The notes under the pieces are model-generated. The model worked only from the letters and a program-made list of their open reading frames with translations. It ran no database searches and had not been told where the DNA came from. A stretch of DNA of 64,000 bases from a virus. The stretch is from positions 28,156 to 92,155 of IMG/VR virus record IMGVR_UViG_3300011113_000287; one strand, given 5' to 3'. This document shows, one piece after another, positions 4,361-59,998 of this stretch (position 1 is its first letter; every line of letters starts with the position of its first letter). The position numbers and the translations under genes are program-made.

Positions 4361-4695
4361 GCTTCCTTCCTCATTTCTTTTGATTTGCGTACAACCATTT
4401 TGTGTTGCTCATGGTAGAACTTCATACGACGTTTACGATTACGGTTCGGCTTACCACGAGGTTGGAAATCAACTCCTCCCCACACCCCGTAGAACTCGTC
4501 CTTAGCCAATGCGAAGTTAAAGCACTCACGCACTACTTCGCACTTAGCACAAATGCTTTGCGTATGCTTTAATTTACTTTTGTAAGTACCTACTTCGTCC
4601 TTCTCGCAGTCAAGAAAGAACAGGTTGGAGGGAAGCCCCCTACAACCTGCCCTTTCGTACCACGACAGGTCTGGTGTCGTGGCGTTGTCCGTCAC
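4357..4695 (-). CDS. whiB: WhiB-family Fe-S transcription factor
   Basis: W..RAGC...FF...ICAKCEVVREC...GVWGG: four Cys plus G[VI]WGG turn; basic C-terminus. Confidence 0.92.
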   Translation of the reverse strand: MTDNATTPDLSWYERAGCRGLPSNLFFLDCEKDEVGTYKSKLKHTQSICAKCEVVRECFNFALAKDEFYGVWGGVDFQPRGKPNRNRKRRMKFYHEQHKMVVRKSKEMRKEA

Positions 4696-9907: not shown

Positions 9908-10306
9908 TTATTGCAGGAGTTGGTATAAAATCGTAAACAAATCAAAATTGGTGTCTTGCATACTTGGTACAACGCTTAAATCTTTACTTTGTTTTTTGAT
10001 TGTTTCGTTTACATCAACACACTTTACGCAATGACAATTTTGTCTATATCTTGTAACAGTGCCGTGCGGTTTCAACGCCGTCTTTTTAGGCTTCTTGCTA
10101 AATGCGCTTCTTTCTAACGGAGTGAGTCCTCCCCACATTCCCCATTGTTCATTCAGCCCGTCCTTCAAACATTTCCTCCACACTGGGCACGCATGACATA
10201 CTTCACGAGCAACAGCGTAATACTCGTCTTGATTATCCGCTTCTAACGGCGGATACCACAAGTCAATGTGCTTGCCCTTGCACAGGGCTTCGTCTCTCCA
10301 CGTCAT
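9908..10306 (-). CDS. whiB: WhiB-family transcription factor with extra C-terminal Cys motif
   Basis: WRDEALC...VCHACPVWRKC...GMWGGLTPLER; then HGTVTRYRQNCHCVKC. Confidence 0.92.
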   Translation of the reverse strand: MTWRDEALCKGKHIDLWYPPLEADNQDEYYAVAREVCHACPVWRKCLKDGLNEQWGMWGGLTPLERSAFSKKPKKTALKPHGTVTRYRQNCHCVKCVDVNETIKKQSKDLSVVPSMQDTNFDLFTILYQLLQ

Positions 10307-11577: not shown

Positions 11578-11710
11578 TTTGTAACTCCATGTTTACGGCA
11601 GCGGTTGAGTGTACGTCTTTATTCGTACAAATGGGAGGGTATTTATTGCTGAGTACTGATACGGTTTTTTTACATTTAGGGCATTTGTAAGTATACGGTA
11701 GGGCTTTCAT
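11552..11710 (-). CDS. 52-aa zinc-ribbon protein (not in ORF track)
   Basis: MKALPYTYKCPKCKK...PPICTNKDVH; ATGA overlap with upstream gene. Confidence 0.55.
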   Translation of the reverse strand: MKALPYTYKCPKCKKTVSVLSNKYPPICTNKDVHSTAAVNMELQNVRTKENH

Positions 11711-13164
11711 TGCTCCTCTTCAATGTCTATCACTTCCTGATAAAACGAGTCCGTTGCCGCTGGTCCTAGTCCACCATGTGGTAGGGCATTGGCTTGGTCG
11801 GCGGCTCGCTGTCCGAACAGTCTAGACAACACGCCGCTTGAACCACGGGCTTCAACCTCAAAGCGTACAAGGTCACGGGTGTCGTTGATGCTCTTGAATT
11901 TCTCAATCATTTCAAAAGCCCTGTCCATTTCAGATGACAAAGAGGAATCAAGTCCTTGTCCCTCCATCTCTTCGGCAAAGCGGGCAAACATAACACGGCT
12001 CACTTGCATCTCAATCATGGCTCTAAGGGCTGCCTGTAGTTGGTCTCTAGTTCGTATCTCCACAGGCAGTTTAAACGCACATTCTGTATGTTCCTTAAAT
12101 GCGGGACATTTTGAGGCCAGATAACAATTATCGCACTGCCGTAAAAGTGCTCCCGTGTAGCGAATTATGTTGGTTTGTTCAGGTGCAATTTCAATAGATT
12201 CCCCATGTTCATCAATGGTTTGAGAACCCATTGAGGTAATGGTTTCCACCCCCATGACGGGTAATAATAAACGCTCATTTTCGTTCCGCTTTTCGGGAGG
12301 GGGGATAACAATACCTGTACCCCTGTTTTCCACATTTGCTAAACTACCACCATGGGGGGGTGTAATAATTATGTCACCACTTTCAGTGTCGTCGGAGTCG
12401 CCTTGATTGCTTGATGTCATGGTGTCATAGCCCCCAAAAATGTGTTCTTCGTAACGTTTCCACGATGTGATTGCCAACTTGCTGACCGCATCAACCTCGT
12501 CAGCCATGACGCTTTCAAACGGAATACCCAAGCGCTCAATGTCCGACCTATGCCGTTTACGGGCAGAGTCTTTTTGTTGGGCGGGGTAACGTCGTAACCC
12601 ATGTCCCGTCCAGACCTGCGTCTCTCCGTAACGCACAGCGCTTGTCCAGGAGTTGACCAATACGGCATCCCATTTGTAGTTTTCAATGTTGTCTGGTTTT
12701 GAGGTCAACCCGACCATTTCGGCGTTCCACCGCATGGCAATGGCATTTAGCCTATTGTGATGGTGTTTAGTCAATGCCTTGTCACTGATGGCTACTCTGC
12801 CGTGCCTTTGGCAAATCCAATTAAGACGTTCAAGGTCGTCGGCGTCGTTCCAAATTGGTACGTACTTTTCGCCCAACCATGTTCCGTCGTAATCTGGGCG
12901 ACCAATGACCAGAGTTAAATCATCAACATAAGACCGTAAAAAAGCATCGTAACGAGACACGTCTTCGTCTGCCTCTGACGTGTAAATCAATAACTCACTA
13001 TTTTCGTATTTCGTGCGTAGGTCTAATTGTTTCTTTTTTGGAATAGCCAAATGGGTCAAATTAAGACCAATACGACGTACTTCGGCTGATAACAGCATTG
13101 AGGCGTACATGCCTTTTTCTGCTCCGCCAAAGTAAATCTTCACTCCCAGCCTGCTTTGCGCCAC
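11707..13164 (-). CDS. two-domain protein: degenerate TGT/DpdA-like N-terminus plus Cys4 helical C-terminal domain
   Basis: IYFGG start, WDAVLVNSWTSAVRYGE; CDNC..CPAF..C cluster; the ORF is secure, the function tentative. Confidence 0.4.
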   Translation of the reverse strand: MAQSRLGVKIYFGGAEKGMYASMLLSAEVRRIGLNLTHLAIPKKKQLDLRTKYENSELLIYTSEADEDVSRYDAFLRSYVDDLTLVIGRPDYDGTWLGEKYVPIWNDADDLERLNWICQRHGRVAISDKALTKHHHNRLNAIAMRWNAEMVGLTSKPDNIENYKWDAVLVNSWTSAVRYGETQVWTGHGLRRYPAQQKDSARKRHRSDIERLGIPFESVMADEVDAVSKLAITSWKRYEEHIFGGYDTMTSSNQGDSDDTESGDIIITPPHGGSLANVENRGTGIVIPPPEKRNENERLLLPVMGVETITSMGSQTIDEHGESIEIAPEQTNIIRYTGALLRQCDNCYLASKCPAFKEHTECAFKLPVEIRTRDQLQAALRAMIEMQVSRVMFARFAEEMEGQGLDSSLSSEMDRAFEMIEKFKSINDTRDLVRFEVEARGSSGVLSRLFGQRAADQANALPHGGLGPAATDSFYQEVIDIEEEQ

Positions 13165-14358: not shown

Positions 14359-14628
14359 TTATTTTTTCATTCTTGGCTTCAGACTATTGTCTAACGCCAA
14401 TCCTAGAAATTTACCGTCTTTAGGGTCTTCTACGTAGGTAAACGGGGAAGGTAAGCGCATGGCGCCAAATTGAGAGCCTTTGGCAACCCTCACCAATGAC
14501 CCTGGTTCAATGTTTAGTTTGGACTTTTCCTTGTCCAATCCTTCGGGGCGCCATTCGTATACTGCTCCAACACGGGGTCTTTGTGGACGACGACGGCTGT
14601 TGTTTTGTTCGTTGTGTCCATGAGGCAT
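14359..14628 (-). CDS. tagged orphan protein 1 (beta-rich, SH3-like body)
   Basis: starts MPHGHNEQNNSRRRPQRP; TATAAT 6 nt upstream suggests a leaderless transcript. Confidence 0.7.
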   Translation of the reverse strand: MPHGHNEQNNSRRRPQRPRVGAVYEWRPEGLDKEKSKLNIEPGSLVRVAKGSQFGAMRLPSPFTYVEDPKDGKFLGLALDNSLKPRMKK

Positions 14629-14670
14629 GATTACATTATAGTGTACACGACTCAAAGAAGTCTTAAAGTT

Positions 14671-15819
14671 TCACGAGTATTGCGGTTTTTCGTTTGGATA
14701 CATTTCTACGGGCTTTCCACGTGTTACATATACTCGGTAATCTTGAGACGGTACTCCAAAGTGGCTATAGTCGTAATCATCGTCTTCTGGGACCTGCATA
14801 AACCTTGATGGCATGCCAAAGGCTTCTGCGGTATTATCGGTGTATTCAAGTGGTTCAAATACTCCGTCGTCTAAGTCTGCTTGAAAAACGTCGTCTGCAC
14901 GAGCGTTCAAAATACTACGCCGTTTCTTTGGATACTGCTGTTCAAGGCGTTTCTCTTCTTTCAGTGCACCACGTCTAGTCATAAATGGTCGGCTTTCATG
15001 CACCAATTCGCCCTCGTCGTACCACCAGCCTCCCTCTGCTGAGCCGCCGTAAGCATCATGCTCCTCGTAGACACCAACACGGTAAGGTGCAATTCGCTCT
15101 TTTAGTCTGTCAACTCGTGACAAATTCCTTGTTTTTCGTTTATGTAAAGCCTTCCCAACAGCAACAGAGTTTCTTGTGTATTCTCCTTGATACTCATTTC
15201 CGTCGTTGTAATAAACTTTTCCATCGCCTTTTACGTCTTTGTCCGACGATGAGAAAACCTTACGTTCCTCAAGAGCCTTGTCAACAGAGCGCTTTCCCAG
15301 CAGGGCTGCAAGCGTGATGTGTCGGCTCGTTGCACGTGGATAGCCAAAGGACGGAATTTCTCCCGCAAGTACTTGTCTTTCTAATGCTTCAGCCCCTCTT
15401 TTAAGCCTTTGTGACTCTTGTAAGGAATCCACAACGTCAGGATGACTGTTGTAAAAAGACGAACTTCGTTTTGATTTATTTATCCTTATTTGTTCTTGTC
15501 GTTCAAAGGTATCTGGATATTGATACATTCCTTTGTCTTCTATTTCTTTTAAAGTGTCAGCATTTGAGTGCAACGTCTCTATGCGTTTTAGCGTTTCATC
15601 TGTCCATCTTTTTTGACGGTTGAGAGACGTAACGTCCCTGTCTACTGCTTCACTAAATCCAACTTTTTCGTATGAATCACCTTGTGCTTGCTGAAGGCGA
15701 AAAACCTGCTCTCCTGTTGCCGCCGACCCTGGTCGGATTAGTGCTCGTGCAATAGAGTCACGAAAACGTTGACCACGTGTCAATGGCTGTTCTGGTTCTT
15801 GGGTTCCCCAATCACTCAT
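14671..15819 (-). CDS. hypothetical protein with YGG.EGGWWY C-terminal domain
   Basis: start MSDWG; YRVGVYEEHDAYGGSAEGGWWYDEG. Confidence 0.75.
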   Translation of the reverse strand: MSDWGTQEPEQPLTRGQRFRDSIARALIRPGSAATGEQVFRLQQAQGDSYEKVGFSEAVDRDVTSLNRQKRWTDETLKRIETLHSNADTLKEIEDKGMYQYPDTFERQEQIRINKSKRSSSFYNSHPDVVDSLQESQRLKRGAEALERQVLAGEIPSFGYPRATSRHITLAALLGKRSVDKALEERKVFSSSDKDVKGDGKVYYNDGNEYQGEYTRNSVAVGKALHKRKTRNLSRVDRLKERIAPYRVGVYEEHDAYGGSAEGGWWYDEGELVHESRPFMTRRGALKEEKRLEQQYPKKRRSILNARADDVFQADLDDGVFEPLEYTDNTAEAFGMPSRFMQVPEDDDYDYSHFGVPSQDYRVYVTRGKPVEMYPNEKPQYS

Positions 15820-16162
15820 TAGATTCTCCTTCGCCAGAAAACTGGTCGCCAAGTTTGGGGATACCTGTTGCTTTACGCATACGAGCCTCCCATGTTATTC
15901 TTTGTAACAAACGTGCTCCAGGTGAATCGTAGGTTCCTGGACCTTGATACTCTCCCTCAAAGTCAGAAACGGGAACAGCAGCCGCTCGCATCATAGCACC
16001 ATGCTGCTGCTCAGTGGTCATGCCATGTTCGGCAAGAATGTCGCCTTCAGCCTTTGCTTCTTGCTTTGCTATCAGCCCATCCATGTGTTTCTTGTTTCGT
16101 TTACGGCGAGTTTTTGCCGCTTGCGAACTTCGCTTTTCCATTTTACTTTTCTTTTTAGCCAC
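15812..16162 (-). CDS. protein with basic N-terminus
   Basis: GTG start, MAKKKSKMEKR... Confidence 0.6.
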   Translation of the reverse strand: MAKKKSKMEKRSSQAAKTRRKRNKKHMDGLIAKQEAKAEGDILAEHGMTTEQQHGAMMRAAAVPVSDFEGEYQGPGTYDSPGARLLQRITWEARMRKATGIPKLGDQFSGEGESNE

Positions 16163-16166
16163 GGTA

Positions 16167-16445
16167 TTAGCAATCCCAGGCTCGCAGAGACTTATTAATG
16201 CGGCTGTTAGGGTCACGTGCAGTTTTGGCTGACGTGTTCTTCTTCTTCATGCCTTCCATTCGGGCACAGAATGACTTGCGACGGGCAGCAGACTTCTCCG
16301 ATTTGGCGGCTTCTTTTTTCTTCACAGGCGGCTTGAGGTCAGAGCCAGGGTTCTCACGTTCGTAGGACTTGCGTCCCTTTTCGTTGAGACCGCCCTTTTC
16401 GTTCTTGCCTTCTTTGCGCTGCCACGCTGCTGATTTCTTAGCCAT
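16167..16445 (-). CDS. basic phage protein (DUF6321-like)
   Basis: GGLNEKGRKSY...RRKSFCARM...DPNSRINKSLRAWDC. Confidence 0.75.
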   Translation of the reverse strand: MAKKSAAWQRKEGKNEKGGLNEKGRKSYERENPGSDLKPPVKKKEAAKSEKSAARRKSFCARMEGMKKKNTSAKTARDPNSRINKSLRAWDC

Positions 16446-16828
16446 TATCTTATGTTAATCCTTCCAACATGTTCTCTCTTTGTAAGTAACTTACCTTCGT
16501 TTGCCGTGGCCCCTACATTAAAATGGTCATCAATGTAACGTGCTGCTTGAATTGCTGATTTAAATGGAAAAGTTCTGTAACTATCCACTGTCTTTGGTTG
16601 TTCATCAAACTCAAGAGTTACATCATACCCAACAACGTGGAGGGGACCAGCCGTATGTCGCCTTTTGCTGCCCATATTAGTTCTCATTTTCGGACGAACG
16701 TCTGGAGAAATTAACACATCTTTGTGGGTGTAATGAGGCCATGTGTCAAAACCCATTCCTGGAATAAGACGCATCTCACGTTTGGGTCTCCGACTTTCAT
16801 TGTGGCGTTCGTCTTTTCCACGTGCCAT
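16445..16828 (-). CDS. tagged orphan protein 2
   Basis: starts MARGKDERHNESRRPKR. Confidence 0.75.
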   Translation of the reverse strand: MARGKDERHNESRRPKREMRLIPGMGFDTWPHYTHKDVLISPDVRPKMRTNMGSKRRHTAGPLHVVGYDVTLEFDEQPKTVDSYRTFPFKSAIQAARYIDDHFNVGATANEGKLLTKREHVGRINIR

Positions 16829-16950
16829 TACTTCTTCTTTTTCTTTTTGACCACAATTTTGCGGTTCTTTTCTTTCACGGTCATACCAGCATCCTCGGTC
16901 TGCCCTTTTAGTTGGGCATACTTTTCAGCCGCTGTGAGTTTCTTTGCCAT
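16828..16950 (-). CDS. 40-aa lysine-rich microprotein (not in ORF track)
   Basis: MAKKLTAAEKYAQLK...VVKKKKKK; TAATG overlaps at both ends. Confidence 0.65.
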   Translation of the reverse strand: MAKKLTAAEKYAQLKGQTEDAGMTVKEKNRKIVVKKKKKK

Positions 16951-17111
16951 TACTTCTTCTTTTTGGCAACAGCCATGTTGTCCACGAGGTTGGGGTAGGG
17001 GCGACCTGCTTTTTTGGCACGAGCCTTTGCCTCAGCCTTTTCAGACGGGTCAAGTTTTTCCGACTTCTTTTTTGGGTTCTTCTTGTCCCATACTTGTTTC
17101 TTTTTAGCCAT
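16950..17111 (-). CDS. 53-aa basic microprotein (not in ORF track)
   Basis: MAKKKQVWDKKNP...AKARAKKAGRPYPNLVDNM. Confidence 0.7.
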   Translation of the reverse strand: MAKKKQVWDKKNPKKKSEKLDPSEKAEAKARAKKAGRPYPNLVDNMAVAKKKK

Positions 17112-17122
17112 GTTCTAACCTT

Positions 17123-17368
17123 TCAGTCTTCAGGCCAATCTAGACCCCAGTCATCAATTGGCTTTTGTGGATATCCGTATTTCTTTTTTACTTTACCGTA
17201 GCCTGCCAACTTATCAAGTCGGTCAAACAATGCGTCAAGGTCTTCTTGACTCTTTGGTTCTGGACCCGACTCTGCTGGAACGCCGTTTGGAAACGCATTG
17301 GAGTAACCGTCAGGTGGGCGAACTGGTTTCCTTTTGGGATTAAACGATTCGTCGTTACCTTTTGCCAT
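17123..17368 (-). CDS. tagged orphan protein 3
   Basis: starts MAKGNDESFNPKRKPVRP. Confidence 0.75.
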   Translation of the reverse strand: MAKGNDESFNPKRKPVRPPDGYSNAFPNGVPAESGPEPKSQEDLDALFDRLDKLAGYGKVKKKYGYPQKPIDDWGLDWPED

Positions 17369-17373
17369 GATTG

Positions 17374-17691
17374 TTAATACAAATCTCCAGCCTTATGCGC
17401 TTTGTAGGCGTTGTAGTCGTCTCCAAAAGCCTCTTTCTCGGCGTCGGATTCCGCTGTGCGGTAGTAGGAGTCTGCCATGTCGCTGTACTCAGCGCTGCCT
17501 TCCTGCTCCATTCGTAATGCCTCTGCTTCATCTTCAGGAGTTGGCACATACGAATCAGCCTTTTTGTAATCAGTGTTTACTTCCCTGGCGTTGGGGAACA
17601 CTTGTTTGACAATAGCCATCTTCTCTTCGTCCGTCTGGGGACGCTGAGGGCGCCTGCGTGGGTTATTGGATTCGTCGTTACCTCGTGCCAT
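17374..17691 (-). CDS. tagged orphan protein 4 (acidic body)
   Basis: starts MARGNDESNNPRRRPQRP; AAGGAG RBS. Confidence 0.8.
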   Translation of the reverse strand: MARGNDESNNPRRRPQRPQTDEEKMAIVKQVFPNAREVNTDYKKADSYVPTPEDEAEALRMEQEGSAEYSDMADSYYRTAESDAEKEAFGDDYNAYKAHKAGDLY

Positions 17692-17700
17692 AGTTACTCC

Positions 17701-17862
17701 TTAGTTGAATGGGGGCATGTTTTTGCGACGTCGGTTCTGCGAAGGGCCAGCCACTGCGCCCAATCCAGTAAACGTACGGATACGGTCAACGGCTTCCTTC
17801 ATCAAACGACGATTGTCCGTCCTGTTACCTGCAACGGGTTCTCCACGATGCGTGTACGGCAT
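17701..17862 (-). CDS. 53-aa protein (not in ORF track)
   Basis: MPYTHRGEPVAGN...; TAATG overlap. Confidence 0.6.
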   Translation of the reverse strand: MPYTHRGEPVAGNRTDNRRLMKEAVDRIRTFTGLGAVAGPSQNRRRKNMPPFN

Positions 17863-18068
17863 TATCGCCTACCGTACTCAGCCGTAGGAAGGTCGGCAAG
17901 TTCCGAACGCTCCACGATGTTGTATTGCATCTGCAACTCATGACCACGCATGGTAACGCTGGTCATTTCAACCTCTCCACCACGGTTAGGAACGATGGTC
18001 TTGAACTTACCATCGGTTGCCCCCATGATGAGGTCTCGGTTCATTGAACGTGATTCATTAACAGCCAT
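17862..18068 (-). CDS. hypothetical protein
   Basis: MAVNESRSMN..GATDGK; coupled. Confidence 0.7.
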   Translation of the reverse strand: MAVNESRSMNRDLIMGATDGKFKTIVPNRGGEVEMTSVTMRGHELQMQYNIVERSELADLPTAEYGRR

Positions 18069-19156
18069 TATTCTTCCTCTTCCTTGGTTACTTTGCCTGC
18101 GGTCTTTTTCTTGGTTACCTTGCCTTTAGCAACAGCGGAGGGCGGAGTCTTTTTGGTTGCTGATTCAAGGTCGCTCTTAGCCTTGTCCTTGACGGCGCTG
18201 CGTTCCTCGGTCTCTTTGACCTTTGCCTCGGTAGCCGCCTTGGTTTTCTTGGCTGGCTTCTTTTCTGCTGGCTTGCTAGGAGTAGGCGACTTGCCAGCAG
18301 GCTTTTCAGCGGGCGATTTACCAGCGGGTTTCTCAGCAGGTTTTGCAACAGGCTTTGCGGGTTCTGTTGCGGGTTTCTTGGGGTCTGGCTTCTTGCTTGC
18401 AGGACCTTCTTTTGCAGGAGGCATTTTGCGAGCATCGGTAGTTGTCTTAACCGTAGTTGTCTTTCGGTTGTCGCTCATGTCGTCACGACCAGTGAATTTG
18501 TTACGACCAACTTGGGCGGTTGGATTACCAAACTTTACTCCGCTGAAATCAGCCATTGAGTCTCCAACGTCTCCTCCACGAGCAGCGTTACCGCCTGCCC
18601 CTCCACGACCTGCGCCACTTGTGCCACCCTTCCCTGCGCCGCCATCGCCGCCACGAGAAGAACCAGCCTTACCGCCAGCAAAGGTCGGAGCGTACTTTTG
18701 AGATTGGTCAATCTTGCTGCCGACCATGCTATCTTTTGTTGTAGCACCCATGCCAAGTGAGCCGACTGAACCCTTGATATCACCAGTCTGCGTCTTACCA
18801 ATGCTCAAATCAAACTTAATGTCACCACCAGCAGTCATTCCACTGCCGCCACCTTTGGTTGCACCTGCGCCCATACCGCCAAATGCGGTTCGGCGTCCTT
18901 CTCGTGCGGGAGCCTCTGGCGCTCCACGACCATAATCGGGTCTTCCAATATCTGCTTTACCCATGGGCATTGCACCTTTCGCTTGGGGTGTTGGTTTTAG
19001 TTCTCCGTAAGTTGGTCCTTGCATGTTTGCTTGTGAACGATGACCTTGACCAGACAAACTTCCAGCGCCCATTTGGTTAGTTCCACGTTGCTGTGCTCGG
19101 AGGTTTACTCCAGCAAATCCAGCCTCTTGGTACTGTTGAAATGGATTAATTGGCAT
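18068..19156 (-). CDS. low-complexity Gly/RGG-rich and Lys/Pro/Ala-rich protein
   Basis: RGG tracts; PAEKPAGKS tandem repeat; histone H1-like C-terminus. Confidence 0.75.
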   Translation of the reverse strand: MPINPFQQYQEAGFAGVNLRAQQRGTNQMGAGSLSGQGHRSQANMQGPTYGELKPTPQAKGAMPMGKADIGRPDYGRGAPEAPAREGRRTAFGGMGAGATKGGGSGMTAGGDIKFDLSIGKTQTGDIKGSVGSLGMGATTKDSMVGSKIDQSQKYAPTFAGGKAGSSRGGDGGAGKGGTSGAGRGGAGGNAARGGDVGDSMADFSGVKFGNPTAQVGRNKFTGRDDMSDNRKTTTVKTTTDARKMPPAKEGPASKKPDPKKPATEPAKPVAKPAEKPAGKSPAEKPAGKSPTPSKPAEKKPAKKTKAATEAKVKETEERSAVKDKAKSDLESATKKTPPSAVAKGKVTKKKTAGKVTKEEEE

Positions 19157-19453
19157 TTATACCCACAAACTTTGCATTGAATATCTACTAGAACCCTGGA
19201 ACGTGTCGTCTACCAAACCGTTACGGAACATGACGGGCGCCCCTGAGACCCAGGAACGATACGTCGGTGTGTAACGTTGTAATGATAACACATCCATTAT
19301 ACCCGATTCACGCTTGGCAAATCCATAACGCTCTGGCATAAGTTGCTGCGGAACAACGGGGCGAATTTGACGGATGGTGTCGGGGTCGGAGATAGCCGAT
19401 TCCAACGCAAGGTCAACCAACATCTCTTGACGGGAAGCCCAAGGTTTAGCCAT
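19157..19453 (-). CDS. hypothetical protein
   Basis: 98 aa, MAKPW start. Confidence 0.7.
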   Translation of the reverse strand: MAKPWASRQEMLVDLALESAISDPDTIRQIRPVVPQQLMPERYGFAKRESGIMDVLSLQRYTPTYRSWVSGAPVMFRNGLVDDTFQGSSRYSMQSLWV

Positions 19454-19455
19454 TG

Positions 19456-21315
19456 TTAGTCCTCAACGTTCGGTCTTGCTTGGGGAGAATAACCCATTGT
19501 TATTGGATATTGCATGATTTGCCTGTTTCGTTCACCATACGTTTCTCTCCTATAATCCCCACTATTTGACCACGTTAAGTTTCCATCTGGCATTGGACCC
19601 TCAAATGGAAGCCTCAACTGACCAGCATCTTCTAGCCGCAATTGTTGCCTTCGTGTGAATGGCTTACGACTGTTACGAGGACGCCTTGCTGAAGCGGCTG
19701 CGTTTGCACGTTGTTTCTGCCTGACCGTTTCGTAATGGGCGTCGGCAATGGAAGCGCCCATTTGCTGAGCAGTCTCCCTGGACCTGACGAACTCATGAGC
19801 ACCGTGTTCTGGGAAATAATGTTTGAACCCAACGGGGCTTCCCGCCGTCTGTTTGTGGCGGTCCTGTTGGTATGCAGCCCTCAACATGTTGTCTGCAATT
19901 TGTTGGGGAGAGTGATATCCAGAATCAGAAAGGGCACGGGTAACCGCTGCCCGATGCCTGTTCGTTGTCTTGCTGTGCCTTTGGGTGGGGACGACAATAG
20001 TGTCGTCGTGCTGCCTCCACGCAATCGGAGTATTGTAAGAATATACAACGTTTCTGTCGCTGCTGTCTGGCTGGTGCTCAGGAGCAAGTCTGCTCGTGTC
20101 TAGCCAACCAACACTGCCCATTGCACTGTGGTCTCCAAAATGGCTCATACTATCCCTAGGAGTAGCCGCTCCTCTAATCACGTCATCCCTGTTTACAAAT
20201 GACTGAGCAACTCCTTCAATGTTGCGACGTCGTGGACCATCGGTTCTACGTGTGCGACGACCTTGCTGTCGTGAACCGCTGGGAGGTATGACGTTAGAAG
20301 ATTCGTCTCGTCTTGTAACTGAGTTAATCCATGTACGGTCTAAGTTTTTTAAGTGTCTTCGTGTGTTTTCTTCTACCCGTGTTTTTGCTAAACTGTGATG
20401 GGCTGGACTGTTAACACTCTGCGGGTTAATGGGAACTACGGTATTTACAACGTCTTCTTTCAATTTAGCAAAACGTTCTTTCCACTCGGTGTCATCTACT
20501 CCCGTTTCACTAACTTCTTTACGGTGCTTTTCTGCCCAATCTTTGACATTTCGTAGGTCAATTTCGTGCGGGGCGTTTTGACTTTCTTCAACAACTGGGA
20601 GTACGTTTCCCTGGAACAGTTGAATCCTGTCATCACGACCTTCACGTACGTCACGTGTGGTGGGAACTGTGTAATAAGCCGCACTTCTACGTGGCTGAAG
20701 TTCCCCACGCATCCATAATTCTTGGTCACTTAGCGGTACGTCTTCTACACGACCTCGGTCAAGGGAGGTTTCAACTTCGTCTGACGTCCGTCCTGCCTGA
20801 CTGTATTCAAACGGGGCATACCCAGACTGTTCTTCAACTTCATCTGGTGTCAGTGATTCTGCCCATTTTCCAGTTCCAACAATGTCGGTGTTTGCTGCTC
20901 TGGTAGCAGCATCAAGATAGGCTTCTTCTTCTGCTTTTGTCCACGGAGCAACCTCTCCACCAAGAGTGGGGTCTGTGCTTGTGAAATCCGTTGTACTGTG
21001 TACGTCTTTGTGCAGCCTTCGTCGCATTGGTTGGTGCGTTTCACTGTAACTATTCTCAGCACGCACGGCGAAGTCACGTGGATAATACTTGGGGTCTGGC
21101 ATATACATGCCCGCAGGACTCTGCTCGTCCTCGGTTACCCCAGGAAAAGACTTTTCAATCTCCGCATTTACACGGCGACGATTTTCTTCTTGTTCAAGTT
21201 CTCCGTAATTAATTAATGCACTGTTGATTGACTGCTCAGCACGACGTGTTTCCCTAAGCAAACGAGCACGGCGTTGCGCCCGTGACTCTGCTGGAGGTAC
21301 TACTGGGTCTGTCAT
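19456..21315 (-). CDS. large disordered protein with embedded YSYxTPIA domain
   Basis: 619 aa; VVYSYNTPIAW...HSKTTNRH. Confidence 0.75.
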   Translation of the reverse strand: MTDPVVPPAESRAQRRARLLRETRRAEQSINSALINYGELEQEENRRRVNAEIEKSFPGVTEDEQSPAGMYMPDPKYYPRDFAVRAENSYSETHQPMRRRLHKDVHSTTDFTSTDPTLGGEVAPWTKAEEEAYLDAATRAANTDIVGTGKWAESLTPDEVEEQSGYAPFEYSQAGRTSDEVETSLDRGRVEDVPLSDQELWMRGELQPRRSAAYYTVPTTRDVREGRDDRIQLFQGNVLPVVEESQNAPHEIDLRNVKDWAEKHRKEVSETGVDDTEWKERFAKLKEDVVNTVVPINPQSVNSPAHHSLAKTRVEENTRRHLKNLDRTWINSVTRRDESSNVIPPSGSRQQGRRTRRTDGPRRRNIEGVAQSFVNRDDVIRGAATPRDSMSHFGDHSAMGSVGWLDTSRLAPEHQPDSSDRNVVYSYNTPIAWRQHDDTIVVPTQRHSKTTNRHRAAVTRALSDSGYHSPQQIADNMLRAAYQQDRHKQTAGSPVGFKHYFPEHGAHEFVRSRETAQQMGASIADAHYETVRQKQRANAAASARRPRNSRKPFTRRQQLRLEDAGQLRLPFEGPMPDGNLTWSNSGDYRRETYGERNRQIMQYPITMGYSPQARPNVED

Positions 21316-21719
21316 TTGTCATCAATGTCTTTGTCTATGATTTTTCCAAGGGTTTTGTCCCACATCTTCTCCATCATGGTTTTATTGGCGGGGTTGCGGT
21401 CAATGAAGTCACGTTCTTCTGAATAGTTTTTGGCGGCTTTGGGACGAGGGATTCCCTTATAAGGAGTCGGGTCTGTGTCTTCAGAAACTCTGTTCTCCCG
21501 TTTCGTTGCTTTCTTTTCCTCTTCCACGTAATCGTAGATTTCACGAGACCTGTTAGTTGGATGCTTTATGCGTGCGTTTCCCTTTGCAACGGCATCCGAC
21601 CTTTCTTGAAGGTTGACTTCACGGACGTCCTTTACTTGACCAGTTTCCCTAAAATGATTGAGGTCAATGATTTTTGGGCGACGGCGAGGGTCGTTCTCGG
21701 AATTCCTACCTCTAGGCAT
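21312..21719 (-). CDS. tagged orphan protein 5
   Basis: starts MPRGRNSENDPRRRPK. Confidence 0.75.
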   Translation of the reverse strand: MPRGRNSENDPRRRPKIIDLNHFRETGQVKDVREVNLQERSDAVAKGNARIKHPTNRSREIYDYVEEEKKATKRENRVSEDTDPTPYKGIPRPKAAKNYSEERDFIDRNPANKTMMEKMWDKTLGKIIDKDIDDK

Positions 21720-23505: not shown

Positions 23506-23796
23506 TTACCTCACAACGGGTTTAATGGAGATAGCAGAAATACTTTCTCCGTTCTCTCCAATAATATCATCAAAACCAATAATGTAAAGAAGGTCAATAC
23601 CACGTGGGGCAACAAAACCACGTGCAATAGCACATGCCTTGACTGCTTGGTTCACGGCGCTTGCGCCGATTGCTCTGACCTTTGGATACTGCCCTGCAAC
23701 TACAGAACGGGCGAGGATGGAGCCAACCGCTTGCGGATTGCTGCTTCCAGAAACTTTGAGGAACTCATCTACGTTGGCATTTAATTCTTGAGACAT
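23506..23796 (-). CDS. spoVS: SpoVS-family (Alba-like) protein
   Basis: LKVSGSSNP..V...AIGASAVNQAVKACAIARGFVAPRG.DL. Confidence 0.9.
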   Translation of the reverse strand: MSQELNANVDEFLKVSGSSNPQAVGSILARSVVAGQYPKVRAIGASAVNQAVKACAIARGFVAPRGIDLLYIIGFDDIIGENGESISAISIKPVVR

Positions 23797-55347: not shown

Positions 55348-56436
55348 TCAGGAAGCCCCGATTGCGCCACCCTTGGTGTTGATGAGCACACGGCTCTCGT
55401 GAGTGATGACTCCAAAGCCCCAGATGGCGTACCACGCCAAACCGTGCTCACGACCAAAGTCAATGACGCCACCGTCACGGAGTTCAACAGGAAGTGCAAT
55501 TGCCTGACCGAAAGCGTTGTCACCAATCATGATGGCACTGTACGAGTCGGCAGTTGGGTCCTGCACACCACCGCTGGACGGGTTCACGTCAACGTAGCCG
55601 TTTGGTCCCCTGAGAACCTGAGTGGTCTCAATGAACACGACGTCGTAGAGGCGACCAATTTCACCCAGCATGAAGTTGCCAGGAGCAGCGTATTTGGTGA
55701 CTTCAATGAACTCAGGCCAGTCACGGAGCGAGCGGCTCTGCGACGGGTGAACGAAGCACACGTAGGTGTCGCCAAGGCGAGGAATGTTCTGACCAGCCAA
55801 AATTTCAACTGCGTCCTTAATGGTCGCAGGCGAGAGGTAGCCAGGAGCATTTGCCGAACCAGCGGCGCTGTACTCGTACGGGGCGATAGAACCACGGGTG
55901 GAACCGTTGGTCAAACGACCAAACACCACGCTTGGCGGAACGGCTGCGCCACCACCAAAGGGGACGCCTGAAGCGTACAGCGTGTTGCGAGCCTGAATGT
56001 CCATGGACTGTGCCATGTGACGACCAAGGAGACGGGAAGCCGACGCCATGACGTCATCAAATGCCGCATTGAGCAGCAACTCGGTGACGGCAACTGCGTT
56101 GCCCTGTTCCTTGACCGTAATTTGAATCTGCGAAGCAGACAAGGCGTTCGGCTCCAAGCGCACACCTTCGGTCAACTCTGCGCCAACAGAAGCGTTGGTG
56201 GAGAGGTTGGTGTAACGCATGAAGTTAACCGTGAGACCAGGCATGACGCCCAATTCGGTCTTCTTAACGGCGAACTGCTCAAAGCGCAGAACGGGCATTG
56301 CCTGGAACAAGATTTCCTTGCTCCAGATTGTCTGGATTGCGGGCGACAGCGTGGAATCAGACGAGTAACCAGTCGTCGTAATTGACGCCAGGTTTGCACC
56401 CGTAATTGAACCACCTGCTGGTGCTGGAAGTGCCAT
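55348..56436 (-). CDS. major capsid protein (N4 gp56-like)
   Basis: F.QFA, LTEG, VHP.Q..LR, GEIG....V.FIET, DFGR..LAWY. Confidence 0.92.
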   Translation of the reverse strand: MALPAPAGGSITGANLASITTTGYSSDSTLSPAIQTIWSKEILFQAMPVLRFEQFAVKKTELGVMPGLTVNFMRYTNLSTNASVGAELTEGVRLEPNALSASQIQITVKEQGNAVAVTELLLNAAFDDVMASASRLLGRHMAQSMDIQARNTLYASGVPFGGGAAVPPSVVFGRLTNGSTRGSIAPYEYSAAGSANAPGYLSPATIKDAVEILAGQNIPRLGDTYVCFVHPSQSRSLRDWPEFIEVTKYAAPGNFMLGEIGRLYDVVFIETTQVLRGPNGYVDVNPSSGGVQDPTADSYSAIMIGDNAFGQAIALPVELRDGGVIDFGREHGLAWYAIWGFGVITHESRVLINTKGGAIGAS

Positions 56437-56494: not shown

Positions 56495-57295
56495 TTAGAA
56501 ACGTCCCCGTGAAGAACGTGCGTTCAAGAGTCTCTCACGCATTTTCTGATACTGTTCCATTGACATGTTCCGAATGTCTTCGGCTGTCAACGTCTGCTGC
56601 TCCATCTGAGTTTCCATTGGCCCAACGGGTGGGGCTGTAACCCCCGCACCCTTCAAGCGACTTTGGGATTCCGCAGTTGCTCGCTGAACGTTTTCAAGAA
56701 TAGCAGAACTAACTTCCTTGTACCTGTTAATTTGTGATTCAATTTCTTCTTCGGTTGAACCACTAACCAAACCCAAAAGTTCGGGAATAATGTGTTCTTG
56801 CTCTTCCTGCATACGGCGACCAATGTAATTTTGTAACTCTTGATGGCGGCGTTCCTTTTCCAAAAGGGCTGCCTGTGCCTGACGGTCACGGTCAATTTCC
56901 TCAAGACGAGCCTTCCACTCATTCTCAACAGTGTTGAGTTTCTGATTGAACTCGGTTTCCTGACGGAGGAGGAGTTCCTTAGCCGACAACTCCTCAAACT
57001 CCTTTTCCTTGAGAGCCTTGGCTTCCGCCTTTGCACGCTTCTCGGCTTCTTTGATAGCCGCCTCACGCTCCTCAGCAAGGACCTTCAACTTCTCTTCCAA
57101 GGCTTTGACACGACCATCGGCGTCATCAACCTTCTTGTACAACTTGTCTTTTTCCTGCTTACGAATGTTCTCCACCTCATCTTCGGTGAAGATACGCCCC
57201 TTTGGAGCCTGACCAGTTACCTGGGCAGCCTCCTCTTTGAACGTTTCAGTCGCCTCCACTGGAATGACGACTTCATCCTGTGCTTGCTTTGCCAT
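56495..57295 (-). CDS. capsid scaffolding protein
   Basis: coiled-coil, FTEDEV, MSMEQY..R..L; lies between portal and MCP. Confidence 0.85.
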   Translation of the reverse strand: MAKQAQDEVVIPVEATETFKEEAAQVTGQAPKGRIFTEDEVENIRKQEKDKLYKKVDDADGRVKALEEKLKVLAEEREAAIKEAEKRAKAEAKALKEKEFEELSAKELLLRQETEFNQKLNTVENEWKARLEEIDRDRQAQAALLEKERRHQELQNYIGRRMQEEQEHIIPELLGLVSGSTEEEIESQINRYKEVSSAILENVQRATAESQSRLKGAGVTAPPVGPMETQMEQQTLTAEDIRNMSMEQYQKMRERLLNARSSRGRF

Positions 57296-57345: not shown

Positions 57346-59028
57346 TTATTCTTCACTAGGACTACGACGCTGGGCGAACCTAGCACCGTAAGCCTTACTT
57401 ACCAATTGATTCATCAAATCTGATTCTACAGGGCCGACAGCCGTTCCAGGCATGCCTGCTCCAGAATCTCCCGTAGACGACACGTCAGAACCACCTGCCG
57501 AAGTCGCTGCGGGACCCTCACCTCCTGGAACCATGCCCGTTGCGAGCATGACCGCCATTTGGATTTGAGAATTGAGCATGGTTAACGCACCTTGGTCAAT
57601 GGCGTCGTCCATAAGTTCTTCAAAGATTTCTTCCATCTTTTCGTTCGGGAACTCTTCGCCAAGGATACGCAAGGCTCCACGCTTGGATTCAAGCCCAAGA
57701 CCCATCTTGGCTTGAACCTCATTAAGTTTGATAAGAACATCCACGGGCAACGGTTCGGGCCAGTGAACGCTAGTTTTGTAGGTAATAGGGTCTGCTGGGT
57801 CCAACTGGGTCAAATGGTCACGCTCAGGACGGGCAGCCCTCATAGGGTTGTATACGAGCATTTCAGGACGGAATACAGCAGCAGTACGGATAACAAGTTC
57901 GTTGATGCTTTCAAGTCCCTTTGTGAAATGGGTCTTCTTCATTGAGTAACGGTTCATCAATGGCTGGTATTGGATGGCAAGGGCAACGCCGCTGGTGTTG
58001 GAAACGGGCTGGAATTGACCAAGGGCTGCTTCAGGGATGCCCGTAATTTCGTGCATCGTGCGCTTCAAGAATTGAATGTACTCCAAAGCACCAGACATCT
58101 CACCACGTGATTCAAGGTTGAATACATTGGCGTCTTTGGGGAGACCAGCCCACACCTTCTTCGGCCCACGCTCAAGTTGGCTTGCTTTTGCACCAGTAAT
58201 AATGGTGACGGGAGCAGCGTGATAGTTGATGATGTCGGACACCTCAACCATTTTTTCGTTCAACTCACGGTTGAGGGGAATGATATCCCAAATGTCTGAT
58301 TGACCCCAAGGCGAAGAAGAGATACTAACGTTTGGAATATGTACAACTGGCACGGAGCCAATAGCATTTGGATACTCGTCAATCAGTTCATCGTTGATGA
58401 ATTGCTGAACCATTTCGTCAGACAAGATTTCCGTGAACGTGTAAACCTGACGAGTGCCTTCGGCAGAGGTTCCCCAAAAACGATACTTAAGTTTAAACCT
58501 CAACAAACGGTCACGGTCATGCGGATGGTACTCAGGAAAGCAGTGCGCTGGGTTTAGAGGAATGACACGAATACGCCCCTCGTGCGGGATACCAACGGTG
58601 TCTACATAAGGCTCCTCGTAGGCAACCTTGACAAAGCAGTCTCCAGTGACGCCAGCCAATTGCCCCATTTCCCACAGCACTTTATGCTTGTTGTTGTGAC
58701 CGTTCCAAACGTCGTCTAGCAAGTGGGGAATAATTGCAGTGTTTTGTTCTGGGCATTTGAATTGAACACCTTTACCAAAACAAAAGTTGGTAATGTAATC
58801 CGCCATTGTGCGAACGTAGTTAAGGTAAAACGCCGATTCTCCCATTTCACGGCGATATGACCAATGGTGTCCCAAATACCACGCCCATGCCGACGAGTAG
58901 CGGTTCAGGCGAGGACCATGAACCTCAAACTCTTCATCGGCAAGTTCCACCAACCCCAACGGGCTGATGGCTACCGTCAGGTCACTGGCAGCAGCACGAT
59001 AAGATGGTGACCAAAAGTCAATTGCCAT
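57346..59028 (-). CDS. portal protein (SPP1 gp6-like)
   Basis: GD.FVKV, PVVHIPN, WGQSD, SGVAL. Confidence 0.9.
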   Translation of the reverse strand: MAIDFWSPSYRAAASDLTVAISPLGLVELADEEFEVHGPRLNRYSSAWAWYLGHHWSYRREMGESAFYLNYVRTMADYITNFCFGKGVQFKCPEQNTAIIPHLLDDVWNGHNNKHKVLWEMGQLAGVTGDCFVKVAYEEPYVDTVGIPHEGRIRVIPLNPAHCFPEYHPHDRDRLLRFKLKYRFWGTSAEGTRQVYTFTEILSDEMVQQFINDELIDEYPNAIGSVPVVHIPNVSISSSPWGQSDIWDIIPLNRELNEKMVEVSDIINYHAAPVTIITGAKASQLERGPKKVWAGLPKDANVFNLESRGEMSGALEYIQFLKRTMHEITGIPEAALGQFQPVSNTSGVALAIQYQPLMNRYSMKKTHFTKGLESINELVIRTAAVFRPEMLVYNPMRAARPERDHLTQLDPADPITYKTSVHWPEPLPVDVLIKLNEVQAKMGLGLESKRGALRILGEEFPNEKMEEIFEELMDDAIDQGALTMLNSQIQMAVMLATGMVPGGEGPAATSAGGSDVSSTGDSGAGMPGTAVGPVESDLMNQLVSKAYGARFAQRRSPSEE

Positions 59029-59368: not shown

Positions 59369-59998
59369 TTATACCGTTTTGCGTCGTTTTGTGCTCACCT
59401 TTTGCCCTTGCACAAACGCTTGGTACGGTGCGCCTGTTCCAGAGTCGTATTTGGAGGCGACAGCCAAGGCACGAAGAGCAATGCTTCTTGCCTGCTGTGA
59501 GTTAAGTTTTTTGTTACGAATTAAAACAGTCATGGCTCCCAAGGCATAGGCTGACCCACTTCCAAGTGAGTACAACCCAGACGCTTCAGAAGACCAAGAG
59601 TAATCAGACTCAATTACGTATATTTGAGAATTAATAGCAACGATAATAGAAGACCCTTGCTCCGCAATATGGCTTTTATCATCACGGTCTGGGACCGAAT
59701 AACCCTGTGTGTCAAAACATTCACGTAATGCTGGTATGAACTTAGAGGTAAAGAACTGGTCTAGTTTTTTACCACGTAGGTTTTGAGGGGGCTGTGGCGG
59801 TTGAAACACATGATGAAGAATGTTTATTGCCCGAACGTCTCCAGCGGCTCCAATTAAGTATTTACCATTTTGTGCCAATTTACCAGAACCTTCTCGCAAC
59901 GTTCCAATTTGGTATCCACCATCACTTTCGGTGCTGATACGTGAGTCAGCACAAATTACCGCAAACTCTTCTCCCTGAATACCAACAATGGTTGTCAT
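59369..59998 (-). CDS. proteasome-beta/HslV-like Ntn threonine protease
   Basis: MTTIVG (Thr1), ADSR, K, AGD, GSGSAYALG, D..TG. Confidence 0.88.
   Translation of the reverse strand: MTTIVGIQGEEFAVICADSRISTESDGGYQIGTLREGSGKLAQNGKYLIGAAGDVRAINILHHVFQPPQPPQNLRGKKLDQFFTSKFIPALRECFDTQGYSVPDRDDKSHIAEQGSSIIVAINSQIYVIESDYSWSSEASGLYSLGSGSAYALGAMTVLIRNKKLNSQQARSIALRALAVASKYDSGTGAPYQAFVQGQKVSTKRRKTV

What the first reader, a model, noticed from the sequence alone, without database searches (positions are those of the whole stretch)
14359..21719. Five unrelated proteins share an ungapped N-terminal tag: candidate capsid-targeting / cargo-loading system
Seen: the ORFs starting at 14628 (MPHGHNEQNNSRRRPQRP), 16828 (MARGKDERHNESRRPKRE), 17368 (MAKGNDESFNPKRKPVRP), 17691 (MARGNDESNNPRRRPQRP) and 21719 (MPRGRNSENDPRRRPKII) align without gaps from Met1. 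G4, R13 and P15 are invariant. Position 3 is always R/K/H, 6 is D/N, 10 is N/D and 14 is R/K; E7 and R17 occur in 4 of 5. After about residue 18 the proteins share nothing (beta-rich, acidic or helical bodies). Conserved residues use different synonymous codons (e.g. G4 GGT/GGA; R13 CGT/CGG/AGG), so selection appears to act on the peptide rather than the DNA. Known: T4 internal proteins carry a short N-terminal capsid-targeting sequence that loads diverse cargo into proheads. Inference: this is an analogous modular address label that recruits interchangeable cargo (host-takeover or anti-defence effectors) into the head for co-injection with the DNA. Alternatives are an Arg-rich nucleic-acid-binding anchor or a docking motif for one shared partner.
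Basis: partly seen in the sequence, partly recalled or inferred. Interest (0 to 1): 0.92.

Follow-up and report, generated by a model that had tools for sequence, protein, structure and literature searches.

The report
Shared N-terminal tag on actinophage proteins
A group of uncultured freshwater phages of actinobacteria starts one to six of its small, fast-changing, mostly acidic proteins with the same 15-18-residue peptide (MARGxDExxNPxRRP), which looks like an undescribed address or docking tag whose receptor is still unknown.

Summary
All five ORFs start with the motif. It occurs nowhere else in the six-frame translation of the complete 92-kb phage genome (5 seen, 0.04 expected). The DNA upstream is not conserved, and identical residues use different codons.

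A profile of the tag found 37 protein clusters among 1.84 billion. In 36 the match starts at residue 1, and all are 48-164 aa. All real carriers belong to one clade of freshwater myoviruses related to Streptomyces phage BRock. BRock has no tag in the part scanned, including the syntenic region.

Profile comparison of two body families aligns only residues 1-17. The tagged genes sit in variable slots within a conserved backbone, between the replication genes and a DpdA-like gene and far from the head genes.

The capsid-targeting reading is not excluded, but it has no direct support: no protease-site motif, no T4-type protease and no virion data.

I favour a docking peptide that tethers variable acidic tails to one common receptor inside the infected cell (about 0.4). 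Capsid loading gets about 0.2.

This scan has noted other shared N-terminal tags in other phages. This tag sequence is new.

The parts
14359..14628 (-). TAG1 gene (89 aa). The tag is codons 1-18 (14575-14628), MPHGHNEQNNSRRRPQRP. The body is a small beta-barrel.
   Evidence: AF2 with 16 sequences gave pLDDT 76: residues 1-22 are coil and four strands follow. Fold matches to SH3 domains are weak, E about 0.05-0.2. Orthologues keep G4, R13, R14 and P15 down to 40% identity. A TATAAT box 6 nt before the ATG is conserved in orthologues.
16445..16828 (-). TAG2 gene (127 aa). The tag is 16775-16828, MARGKDERHNESRRPKRE. The body is basic and probably a folded alpha/beta domain.
   Evidence: All four close body homologues found also carry the tag. 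The AF2 model has low confidence (pLDDT 56), with the tag at pLDDT 38. No Pfam or PHROG match.
17123..17368 (-). TAG3 gene (81 aa). The tag is 17315-17368, MAKGNDESFNPKRKPVRP. The body is acidic, Pro/Gly-rich, and ends in DWGLDWPED.
   Evidence: body pI 4.5. The C-terminal motif recurs in the unrelated tagged protein P0039.
17374..17691 (-). TAG4 gene (105 aa). The tag is 17638-17691, MARGNDESNNPRRRPQRP. It is followed by a conserved QTDEEKMAIVKQVFPNA module and a hypervariable acidic, Tyr-rich tail.
   Evidence: In the family alignment A5 the tag and module are invariant while the tails are shuffled. Body pI is 4.3. AAGGAG lies 7 nt upstream.
21312..21719 (-). TAG5 gene (135 aa). The tag is 21666-21719, MPRGRNSENDPRRRPKII, the most divergent copy (S7, D10).
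   Evidence: Orthologues in L001 (70% identity) and P0058 also carry the tag.

Best explanation
The 15-18 N-terminal residues (consensus M-A-[RK]-G-[NK]-D-E-x-x-N-P-x-R-R-P) form a short linear docking peptide. It is disordered and basic, and it is kept by selection on the peptide rather than the DNA. It joins a rapidly turning-over set of small proteins to one common receptor.

The variable part is usually a 30-90-residue acidic, Tyr/Trp-rich tail of low complexity. Occasionally it is a small folded domain, such as an SH3-like barrel or a zinc ribbon.

I think the receptor most likely acts inside the infected cell. It would be a conserved host or phage hub protein of replication, transcription or DNA handling. 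The acidic tails would then act as tethered competitors or decoys (polyanion or nucleic-acid-mimic type) in host takeover or counter-defence.

- Shown: the tag, its strict N-terminal position, its modularity, its restriction to one clade, the cassette turnover and the acidic bias of the bodies.
- Inferred: that the tag binds a single receptor, that the receptor is not the capsid, and what the tails do.
For: **Position and conservation**
- The motif starts at residue 1 in 36 of 37 clusters from 1.84 billion proteins, all 48-164 aa.
- Few positions are invariant (G4, E7, N10, R13, R14, P15) among variable ones, as in linear motifs.
- The tag is predicted as coil or low confidence in both AF2 models.

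**Modularity**
- Only residues 1-17 align between two family profiles.
- There are 12 body clusters among 23 tagged ORFs.
- The wider set includes a zinc-ribbon body and recurring sub-modules.
- 35 of 42 bodies are acidic (median pI 4.3), against tags of pI about 11.

**Genomic setting**
- Between G000 and L001 the cassettes differ slot by slot in a backbone mostly 83-100% identical.
- The genes lie between the replication/recombination genes and DpdA. They are co-directional with the replication block; within 13-24 kb the listed gaps between genes are at most about 42 bp.
- The head module is 35-45 kb away.
- Hosts are actinobacterial: the phage has two WhiB genes.
- The tag is absent from the related Streptomyces phage BRock in the 50 kb scanned, despite synteny. 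That fits a receptor specific to the freshwater hosts or clade.
Against: - No receptor has been identified.
- No expression-timing data exist.
- Structural genes lie upstream on the same strand, so late read-through into the tagged region is possible.
- Strict N-terminal placement is also what a T4-type packaging tag shows.
- Several copies of one docking motif in a single genome is the pattern known from T4 internal proteins. I know of no described phage case where it serves host-hub binding.
- A basic tag on an acidic body could also simply bind nucleic acid.
Confidence: 0.4

Rival explanations
1. Capsid-targeting tag. The peptide would bind the scaffold or the capsid interior during prohead assembly. 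The tagged proteins would then be packaged and injected with the DNA, like T4 IPI-III and Alt. They might be trimmed by the clade's HslV-family peptidase.
For: - The architecture matches T4's: a short N-terminal tag on several small, unrelated, hypervariable proteins per genome (T4 described in PMC3012670 and PMC7697877).
- The tag is strictly N-terminal.
- An HslV-family peptidase gene next to the portal gene is present in the tag-bearing clade (57-58% identity in G001-G003) but not in BRock, which has no tag in the part scanned.
- T4 also packages small acidic core proteins (my own knowledge).
Against: - No conserved cleavage motif follows the tag, and there is no L/I-x-E pattern.
- No T4-type prohead protease was detected.
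- The genes are in the replication/DpdA block, not near the head genes.
- No large or enzymatic cargo carries the tag in 1.84 billion proteins.
- The same genome appears to hold a second, different N-terminal tag family (note). One packaging signal would not need that.
Confidence: 0.22
2. Nucleic-acid anchor. The Arg/Pro-rich N-terminal arm would bind DNA or a phage or host RNA, placing the acidic tail on the nucleic acid. Arginine-rich motifs of lambda N or Tat are the analogy.
For: - The tag has a net charge of about +3 with an RRRP core, and its pI is about 11.
- The TAG1 body resembles SH3-like small barrels, a fold that includes nucleic-acid binders; OapB is among the weak hits.
- Neighbouring genes encode very basic, histone-H1-like and other small basic proteins.
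Against: - Generic phosphate binding does not need the invariant G4, E7 and N10 or a fixed register from Met1.
- The tag contains two acidic residues.
- Flanking prolines argue against a helical arginine-rich motif.
- No repeated RNA or DNA target was sought or seen.
Confidence: 0.15
3. Recognition sequence for an enzyme. The tag would be the handle by which a protease (for example the HslV-family peptidase or a host AAA+ protease) degrades the proteins in a timed way, or by which a modifying enzyme marks them. RiPP leader peptides are the analogy.
For: - The tag and the HslV-family peptidase occur in the same clade.
- Disordered acidic bodies would be easy substrates.
- An earlier scan note (e1-127136) found another phage tag linked to one enzyme. 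I used this only as a lead.
Against: - No maturase, radical-SAM enzyme or other peptide-modifying enzyme was found by Pfam or PHROGs among about 45 window proteins.
- The co-occurrence rests on a single clade.
- HslV normally needs HslU, which was not seen.
Confidence: 0.1
4. No separate tag function. The genes would be diverged paralogues from tandem duplication whose disordered bodies drifted beyond recognition, with the 5' end kept for translation-initiation or expression reasons.
For: - The tagged genes cluster and are often adjacent; TAG3 and TAG4 are 5 nt apart.
- Many bodies are of low complexity and would lose detectable similarity quickly.
Against: - Conservation is at the peptide level with synonymous changes, and the upstream DNA is unconserved.
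- At least three kinds of body are clearly different: a beta-barrel, a zinc ribbon and acidic disorder.
- The tag is held across orthologues down to 40% identity.
- The TAG4 family shows tail swapping behind an invariant head.
Confidence: 0.08

Closest known systems
Capsid-targeting sequence (CTS) of phage T4 internal proteins IPI, IPII, IPIII and Alt
   Same: Both are short N-terminal peptides shared by several otherwise unrelated small proteins of one phage. In both, the carriers are hypervariable between related phages (PMC3012670, PMC7697877).
   Different: - No sequence likeness to MKTYQEFIAE.
- This tag is basic and Pro/Arg-rich rather than amphipathic.
- No protease site sits at its end, and no gp21-type protease was found.
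- The bodies are mostly acidic and disordered, whereas T4 internal proteins are basic.
- The genes sit in a replication/DNA-modification block.
- Packaging is untested.
Short linear docking motifs that tie many clients to one hub (clamp-binding peptides, SSB C-terminal tip; T4 gp45-binding tails)
   Same: This tag is also 10-20 residues long and disordered, has a few invariant positions, and occurs on unrelated proteins at a chain terminus.
   Different: No hub has been identified. The sequence matches no clamp-binding or SSB-tip consensus that I know. A profile search of PDB sequences gave no meaningful precedent.
Arginine-rich N-terminal RNA-binding motifs (lambda N, P22 N, HIV Tat)
   Same: Both are N-terminal, Arg-rich, about 15-20 residues long and disordered when free.
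   Different: This tag has prolines flanking the Arg run, conserved acidic and Gly/Asn positions, and several carriers per genome. No cognate RNA element is known.
RiPP leader peptides shared by many precursors (e.g. prochlorosin Nif11-type leaders)
   Same: Both have one conserved N-terminal segment on many hypervariable C-terminal parts within a genome.
   Different: No maturase gene was detected. The bodies are not Cys/Ser/Thr-rich cores. There is no GG/GA-type cleavage motif.

Membership tests
T4-type capsid-targeting sequence | A short N-terminal peptide shared by otherwise unrelated proteins of one phage | tested here: met
   Five carriers in the genome, with no BLASTP similarity between bodies. 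hhalign aligns residues 1-17 only. 36 of 37 clusters match from residue 1.
T4-type capsid-targeting sequence | The tag ends at a prohead-protease site (T4: L/I-x-E) and a matching head protease is encoded | tested here: not met
   No conserved residue pattern follows P15 in 22 tags or 37 clusters. Pfam and PHROGs show a scaffold and an HslV-family peptidase but no gp21/S77- or HK97-type protease. Whether the HslV-like enzyme cuts the tag is unknown.
T4-type capsid-targeting sequence | Carrier proteins are present inside virions | not testable with these tools
   There is no isolate and no proteome. No RNA or protein data were found.
T4-type capsid-targeting sequence | The tag is sufficient to package a foreign protein | not testable with these tools
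   This needs an experiment (tag-GFP in a culturable relative).
T4-type capsid-targeting sequence | Carrier loci are hypervariable between related phages | tested here: met
   G000 and L001 have a backbone mostly 83-100% identical, but the cassettes differ in four of five slots. Copy number ranges from 1 to 6 per genome or fragment.
Short linear docking motif | It lies in a disordered segment and has a few fixed positions among variable ones | tested here: met
   AF2 models show coil, with pLDDT 56-70 in TAG1 and 38 in TAG2.
Short linear docking motif | A defined receptor domain binds it | not testable with these tools
   No receptor is known. The sequence-profile search of PDB gave nothing meaningful.
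RiPP-type leader peptide | A cognate modifying enzyme is encoded with the precursors | tested here: not met
   None was recognised among about 45 window proteins scanned with Pfam or PHROGs. Unannotated enzymes cannot be excluded.

The most novel reading that the evidence does not exclude
An independent invention of T4-style cargo loading in actinophages. The MARGxDExxNPxRRP peptide would address a changing library of small acidic, nucleic-acid-mimic-like proteins to the prohead. A clade-specific HslV-family (Ntn) peptidase next to the portal gene would process them, and they would be injected ahead of or with 7-deazaguanine-modified DNA to blunt host defences. Injected counter-defence proteins would then be predictable from sequence alone in this lineage.
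Probability: 0.15. Interest if true: 0.8.

Novelty: new variant of a known kind. Interest (0 to 1): 0.6.

Why it matters
Apart from T4's capsid-targeting sequence, I know of almost no sequence-defined address tags in phages. This one has three useful properties:
- It is sharply defined, with about 37 clusters at 50% identity, all N-terminal.
- It is confined to one abundant freshwater actinophage lineage.
- It is attached to a fast-evolving set of small acidic proteins, the kind of gene that is normally impossible to annotate.

Whatever the receptor turns out to be (capsid, host hub or nucleic acid), the tag gives a handle for pulling out that receptor. It also allows a whole class of accessory proteins to be listed from sequence. 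It adds to a recurring pattern seen by this scan in unrelated phages, which suggests that peptide addressing of accessory proteins is more common than the single T4 example implies.

Tried and rejected
- **Co-fold.** Complex prediction with the major capsid protein, scaffold, HslV-like peptidase and tag alignment gave no answer (score 0.00, controls not run). This is no evidence either way.
- **Sequencing runs.** No RNA holder is listed, so nothing can be said about expression. Laying contigs of four lake and river runs showed only that near-identical phage DNA occurs there. One contig carries about 660 extra bases just upstream of the TAG4 start, which I could not read.
- **Body annotation.** Pfam and PHROGs gave nothing for the five bodies. 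tblastn of four of the five proteins (TAG3 not tried) against 50,697 phage records gave nothing significant. The ESM Atlas gave no usable hit for TAG2.
- **Body homologues without a tag.** TAG1 and TAG2 homologues all belong to the same clade and all are tagged. The one apparent exception, P0031, has an unrelated N-terminus and comes from a mis-binned contig.
- **Bacterial genomes.** The pattern scan of 185,579 species gave 7 hits. Only one is real, an 'Ignavibacteria' MAG contig that is a phage fragment of this clade. No host protein with the tag was found under this strict pattern.
- **Promoters and terminators.** Scans around the region were not above shuffled expectation.
- **Partner by co-occurrence.** Comparing genes shared by tag-bearing genomes but absent from BRock gave too many clade-only genes to single out a partner.
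- **SH3-ligand reading.** RxxPxxP (R12..P15..P18) is rejected as general because P18 is not conserved.
- **HbYX-like C-terminal Tyr.** I considered this motif on the tails. Only about a quarter of the tails have it by my count, and Tyr-rich composition could explain that. I did not pursue it.
- **PDB.** The sequence-profile search gave no precedent.


Full report
**Setting**

The window is part of a complete 92,155-bp virus record with direct terminal repeats. All recognisable genes in the window are on the minus strand. In the direction of transcription they run as follows:
- A lysis and head module: VanY-type endolysin, an HslV-family peptidase at 59369-59998, portal at 57346-59028, a coiled-coil scaffold at 56495-57295 and the major capsid protein at 55348-56436.
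- Tail and baseplate genes, from 51.6 down to 38 kb.
- Replication and recombination genes, from 35 down to 24 kb: DnaB, primase, helicase, PolA, a UvsX-like recombinase and a Cas4-type exonuclease.
- The region of the finding, from 23.5 down to 14.3 kb.
- A DpdA-like transglycosylase at 11707-13164.

The phage has two WhiB genes, which points to an actinobacterial host. Its nearest isolates are the BRock-like Streptomyces myoviruses, with the capsid protein 61% identical and DpdA about 27%. Near-identical DNA occurs in lake, river and other freshwater metagenomes from at least seven studies apart from the probable source.

**The observation**

The five ORFs exist and begin as quoted.
- A pattern for the motif matches exactly five times in the six-frame translation of the whole genome, each time directly after the initiator Met.
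- Residue-shuffled translations give 0.04 matches on average.
- The DNA upstream of the five starts does not align.
- Within the 18 codons, 2-8 identical residues per pair use different codons. The constraint is therefore on the peptide.
- The starts are credible. TAG4 has a canonical AAGGAG. TAG2 overlaps the preceding stop codon. TAG1 orthologues keep a TATAAT box 6 nt before the ATG while everything further upstream varies, and two have in-frame stops 5-7 codons upstream.

**Beyond this genome**

- Two degenerate DNA patterns scanned over IMG/VR returned 9 and 22 loci. All 9 loci of the first scan, and the related loci of the second, carry the peptide directly after Met. There are up to six per 14-kb locus and three within 1 kb in L008. 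Loci with no or almost no other homology to this phage are chance hits of the looser pattern.
- Twenty-two tags align without gaps to the consensus MARGxDExxNPxRRPxR. M1, G4, R13 and P15 are invariant. E7, N10 and R14 are at least 90% conserved.
- A profile of that alignment, searched against 1.84 billion representative proteins, found 37 clusters at E ≤ 0.001. In 36 the match begins at residue 1; the other looks like a mis-called start. All are 48-164 aa.
- The same pattern scanned over one genome from each of 185,579 prokaryote species found only a mis-binned phage contig.
- All real carriers belong to one phage clade. The three relatives whose records include the head region have capsid proteins 82-84% identical to this phage's, and across carrier contigs shared proteins average 49-79% identity.
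- BRock is syntenic across this region but has no tag in the 50 kb scanned, which includes that region. The best HMM score there is 6.5 bits.

**Are the bodies unrelated?**

- The five window bodies have no pairwise BLASTP hit. Twenty-three tagged ORFs fall into 12 body clusters.
- hhalign of the TAG1 family (16 sequences) against the TAG2 family (6 sequences) aligns residues 1-17 and nothing else.
- AF2 models TAG1 as a 22-residue coil followed by a small beta-barrel, with weak SH3-like matches.
- TAG2 gives a low-confidence alpha/beta model with a disordered tag.
- The wider set includes a zinc-ribbon body, and sub-modules that recur in different combinations.
- In the TAG4 family the tag and a QTDEEKMAIVKQVFPNA module are invariant, while the tails behind them are swapped.

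The bodies are not arbitrary, however. Thirty-five of 42 are acidic (median pI 4.3), rich in Tyr/Trp and low in complexity, set against tags of pI about 11. No carrier is large or has a known enzyme domain.

**Genomic behaviour**

G000 and locus L001 are collinear, and most shared backbone proteins are 83-100% identical. The tagged cassettes differ in four of five slots:
- One slot is occupied only in L001.
- One holds two tagged genes in G000 and three different ones in L001.
- One holds TAG2 in G000 and an unrelated 43-aa gene in L001.

All TAG1 and TAG2 homologues found are confined to the clade, and all carry the tag apart from P0031, which comes from the mis-binned contig.

**Interpretation**

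The capsid-loading part has only the T4 analogy behind it. In T4, diverse internal proteins share only a roughly 10-residue N-terminal CTS that loads them into the scaffolding core and is removed by the head protease (PMC3012670, PMC7697877). Here four things differ:
- No conserved junction motif follows the tag.
- No T4- or HK97-type protease was detected.
- The genes lie in the replication/DpdA gene block.
- The cargo is acidic and disordered.

One point leans towards the capsid reading. An HslV-family peptidase gene beside the portal gene is conserved in the tag-bearing clade but absent from BRock. This is a single-clade correlation.

I therefore rank the readings as follows:
- A docking peptide for an intracellular receptor: 0.40.
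- Capsid targeting: 0.22.
- A nucleic-acid anchor: 0.15.
- An enzyme recognition or degron sequence: 0.10.
- A mere paralogue remnant: 0.08.

**Comparison with what is known, and novelty**

The tag has no counterpart in Pfam, PHROGs, the phage records searched or PDB sequences. It resembles the T4 CTS in architecture but fails the one membership feature that could be tested, the protease-site motif. I do not file it as a CTS.

Earlier notes of this scan describe other shared N-terminal tags in unrelated phages, so the pattern is recurrent. This sequence, its clade and the acidic-tail theme are new.

Noticed in passing
window 59369-59998 (-): An HslV-family (Ntn, N-terminal MTTIVGI) peptidase gene lies next to the portal gene. 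It is conserved in relatives G001-G003 (57-58% identity) and was not found in Streptomyces phage BRock. It could be an unusual head-maturation protease.
   Followed up: partly
window 11707-13164 (-): A DpdA-like queuine tRNA-ribosyltransferase homologue (phrog_887, E 2e-31). It suggests 7-deazaguanine modification of the phage DNA. BRock has the syntenic gene.
   Followed up: no
window 4456-4662 and 10103-10300 (-): Two WhiB-family genes, both above the Pfam cut-off, supporting an actinobacterial host.
   Followed up: no
window 14629-14650 (upstream of TAG1): A TATAAT box 6 nt before the TAG1 ATG is conserved in at least five orthologous loci while the flanking DNA varies. This looks like a dedicated promoter giving a leaderless or near-leaderless mRNA.
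   Followed up: partly
window 18068-19156 (-): A 362-aa protein with a Gly-rich N-terminal half and a Lys/Pro/Ala repeat tail (PAEKPAGKSP...) like histone H1 or actinobacterial HU tails. It is only 50% identical between G000 and L001, and one lake strain has a 24-bp repeat insertion at 18294.
   Followed up: no
window 16167-16445 and 16950-17111 (-): A DUF6321 protein and a 53-aa very basic protein (phrog_34011, 100% identical in L001) flank the cassette slots. The 53-aa protein has an 'NPKKK' stretch reminiscent of the tag's 'NPRRRP'.
   Followed up: no
genome 16811-21060, before the window start: A second N-terminal family (MAAKDHLQGEQL, MAAKDNLHQAQF, MASSDHISGKQF, MSAADHINEAQK) heads neighbouring genes. 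Another first-stage finding noted it, and I saw it in my ORF list.
   Followed up: partly
tagged proteins P0035, P0043, P0046, P0047, P0064; window 17123-17140: Unrelated tagged proteins share acidic and aromatic C-terminal tips (KDPYK, KDPYE, EDQYK, DWGLDWPED). These may be a second short motif at the other end of the proteins.
   Followed up: no
L044 (VGVV01000016.1): A 19-kb contig binned as an 'Ignavibacteria bacterium' MAG carries two tagged genes of this phage clade. It is almost certainly a mis-binned phage fragment.
   Followed up: partly
window 17672-17691: In one aquatic metagenome a 2.1-kb contig matches both sides of the TAG4 start but has about 660 extra bases between them. This suggests an additional cassette in that strain, as in L001.
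   Followed up: no
window 23506-23796 (-): A SpoVS-like 96-aa protein, 99% identical in L001 and syntenic with BRock gp51 ('sporulation protein'). It marks the upstream border of the variable region.
   Followed up: no
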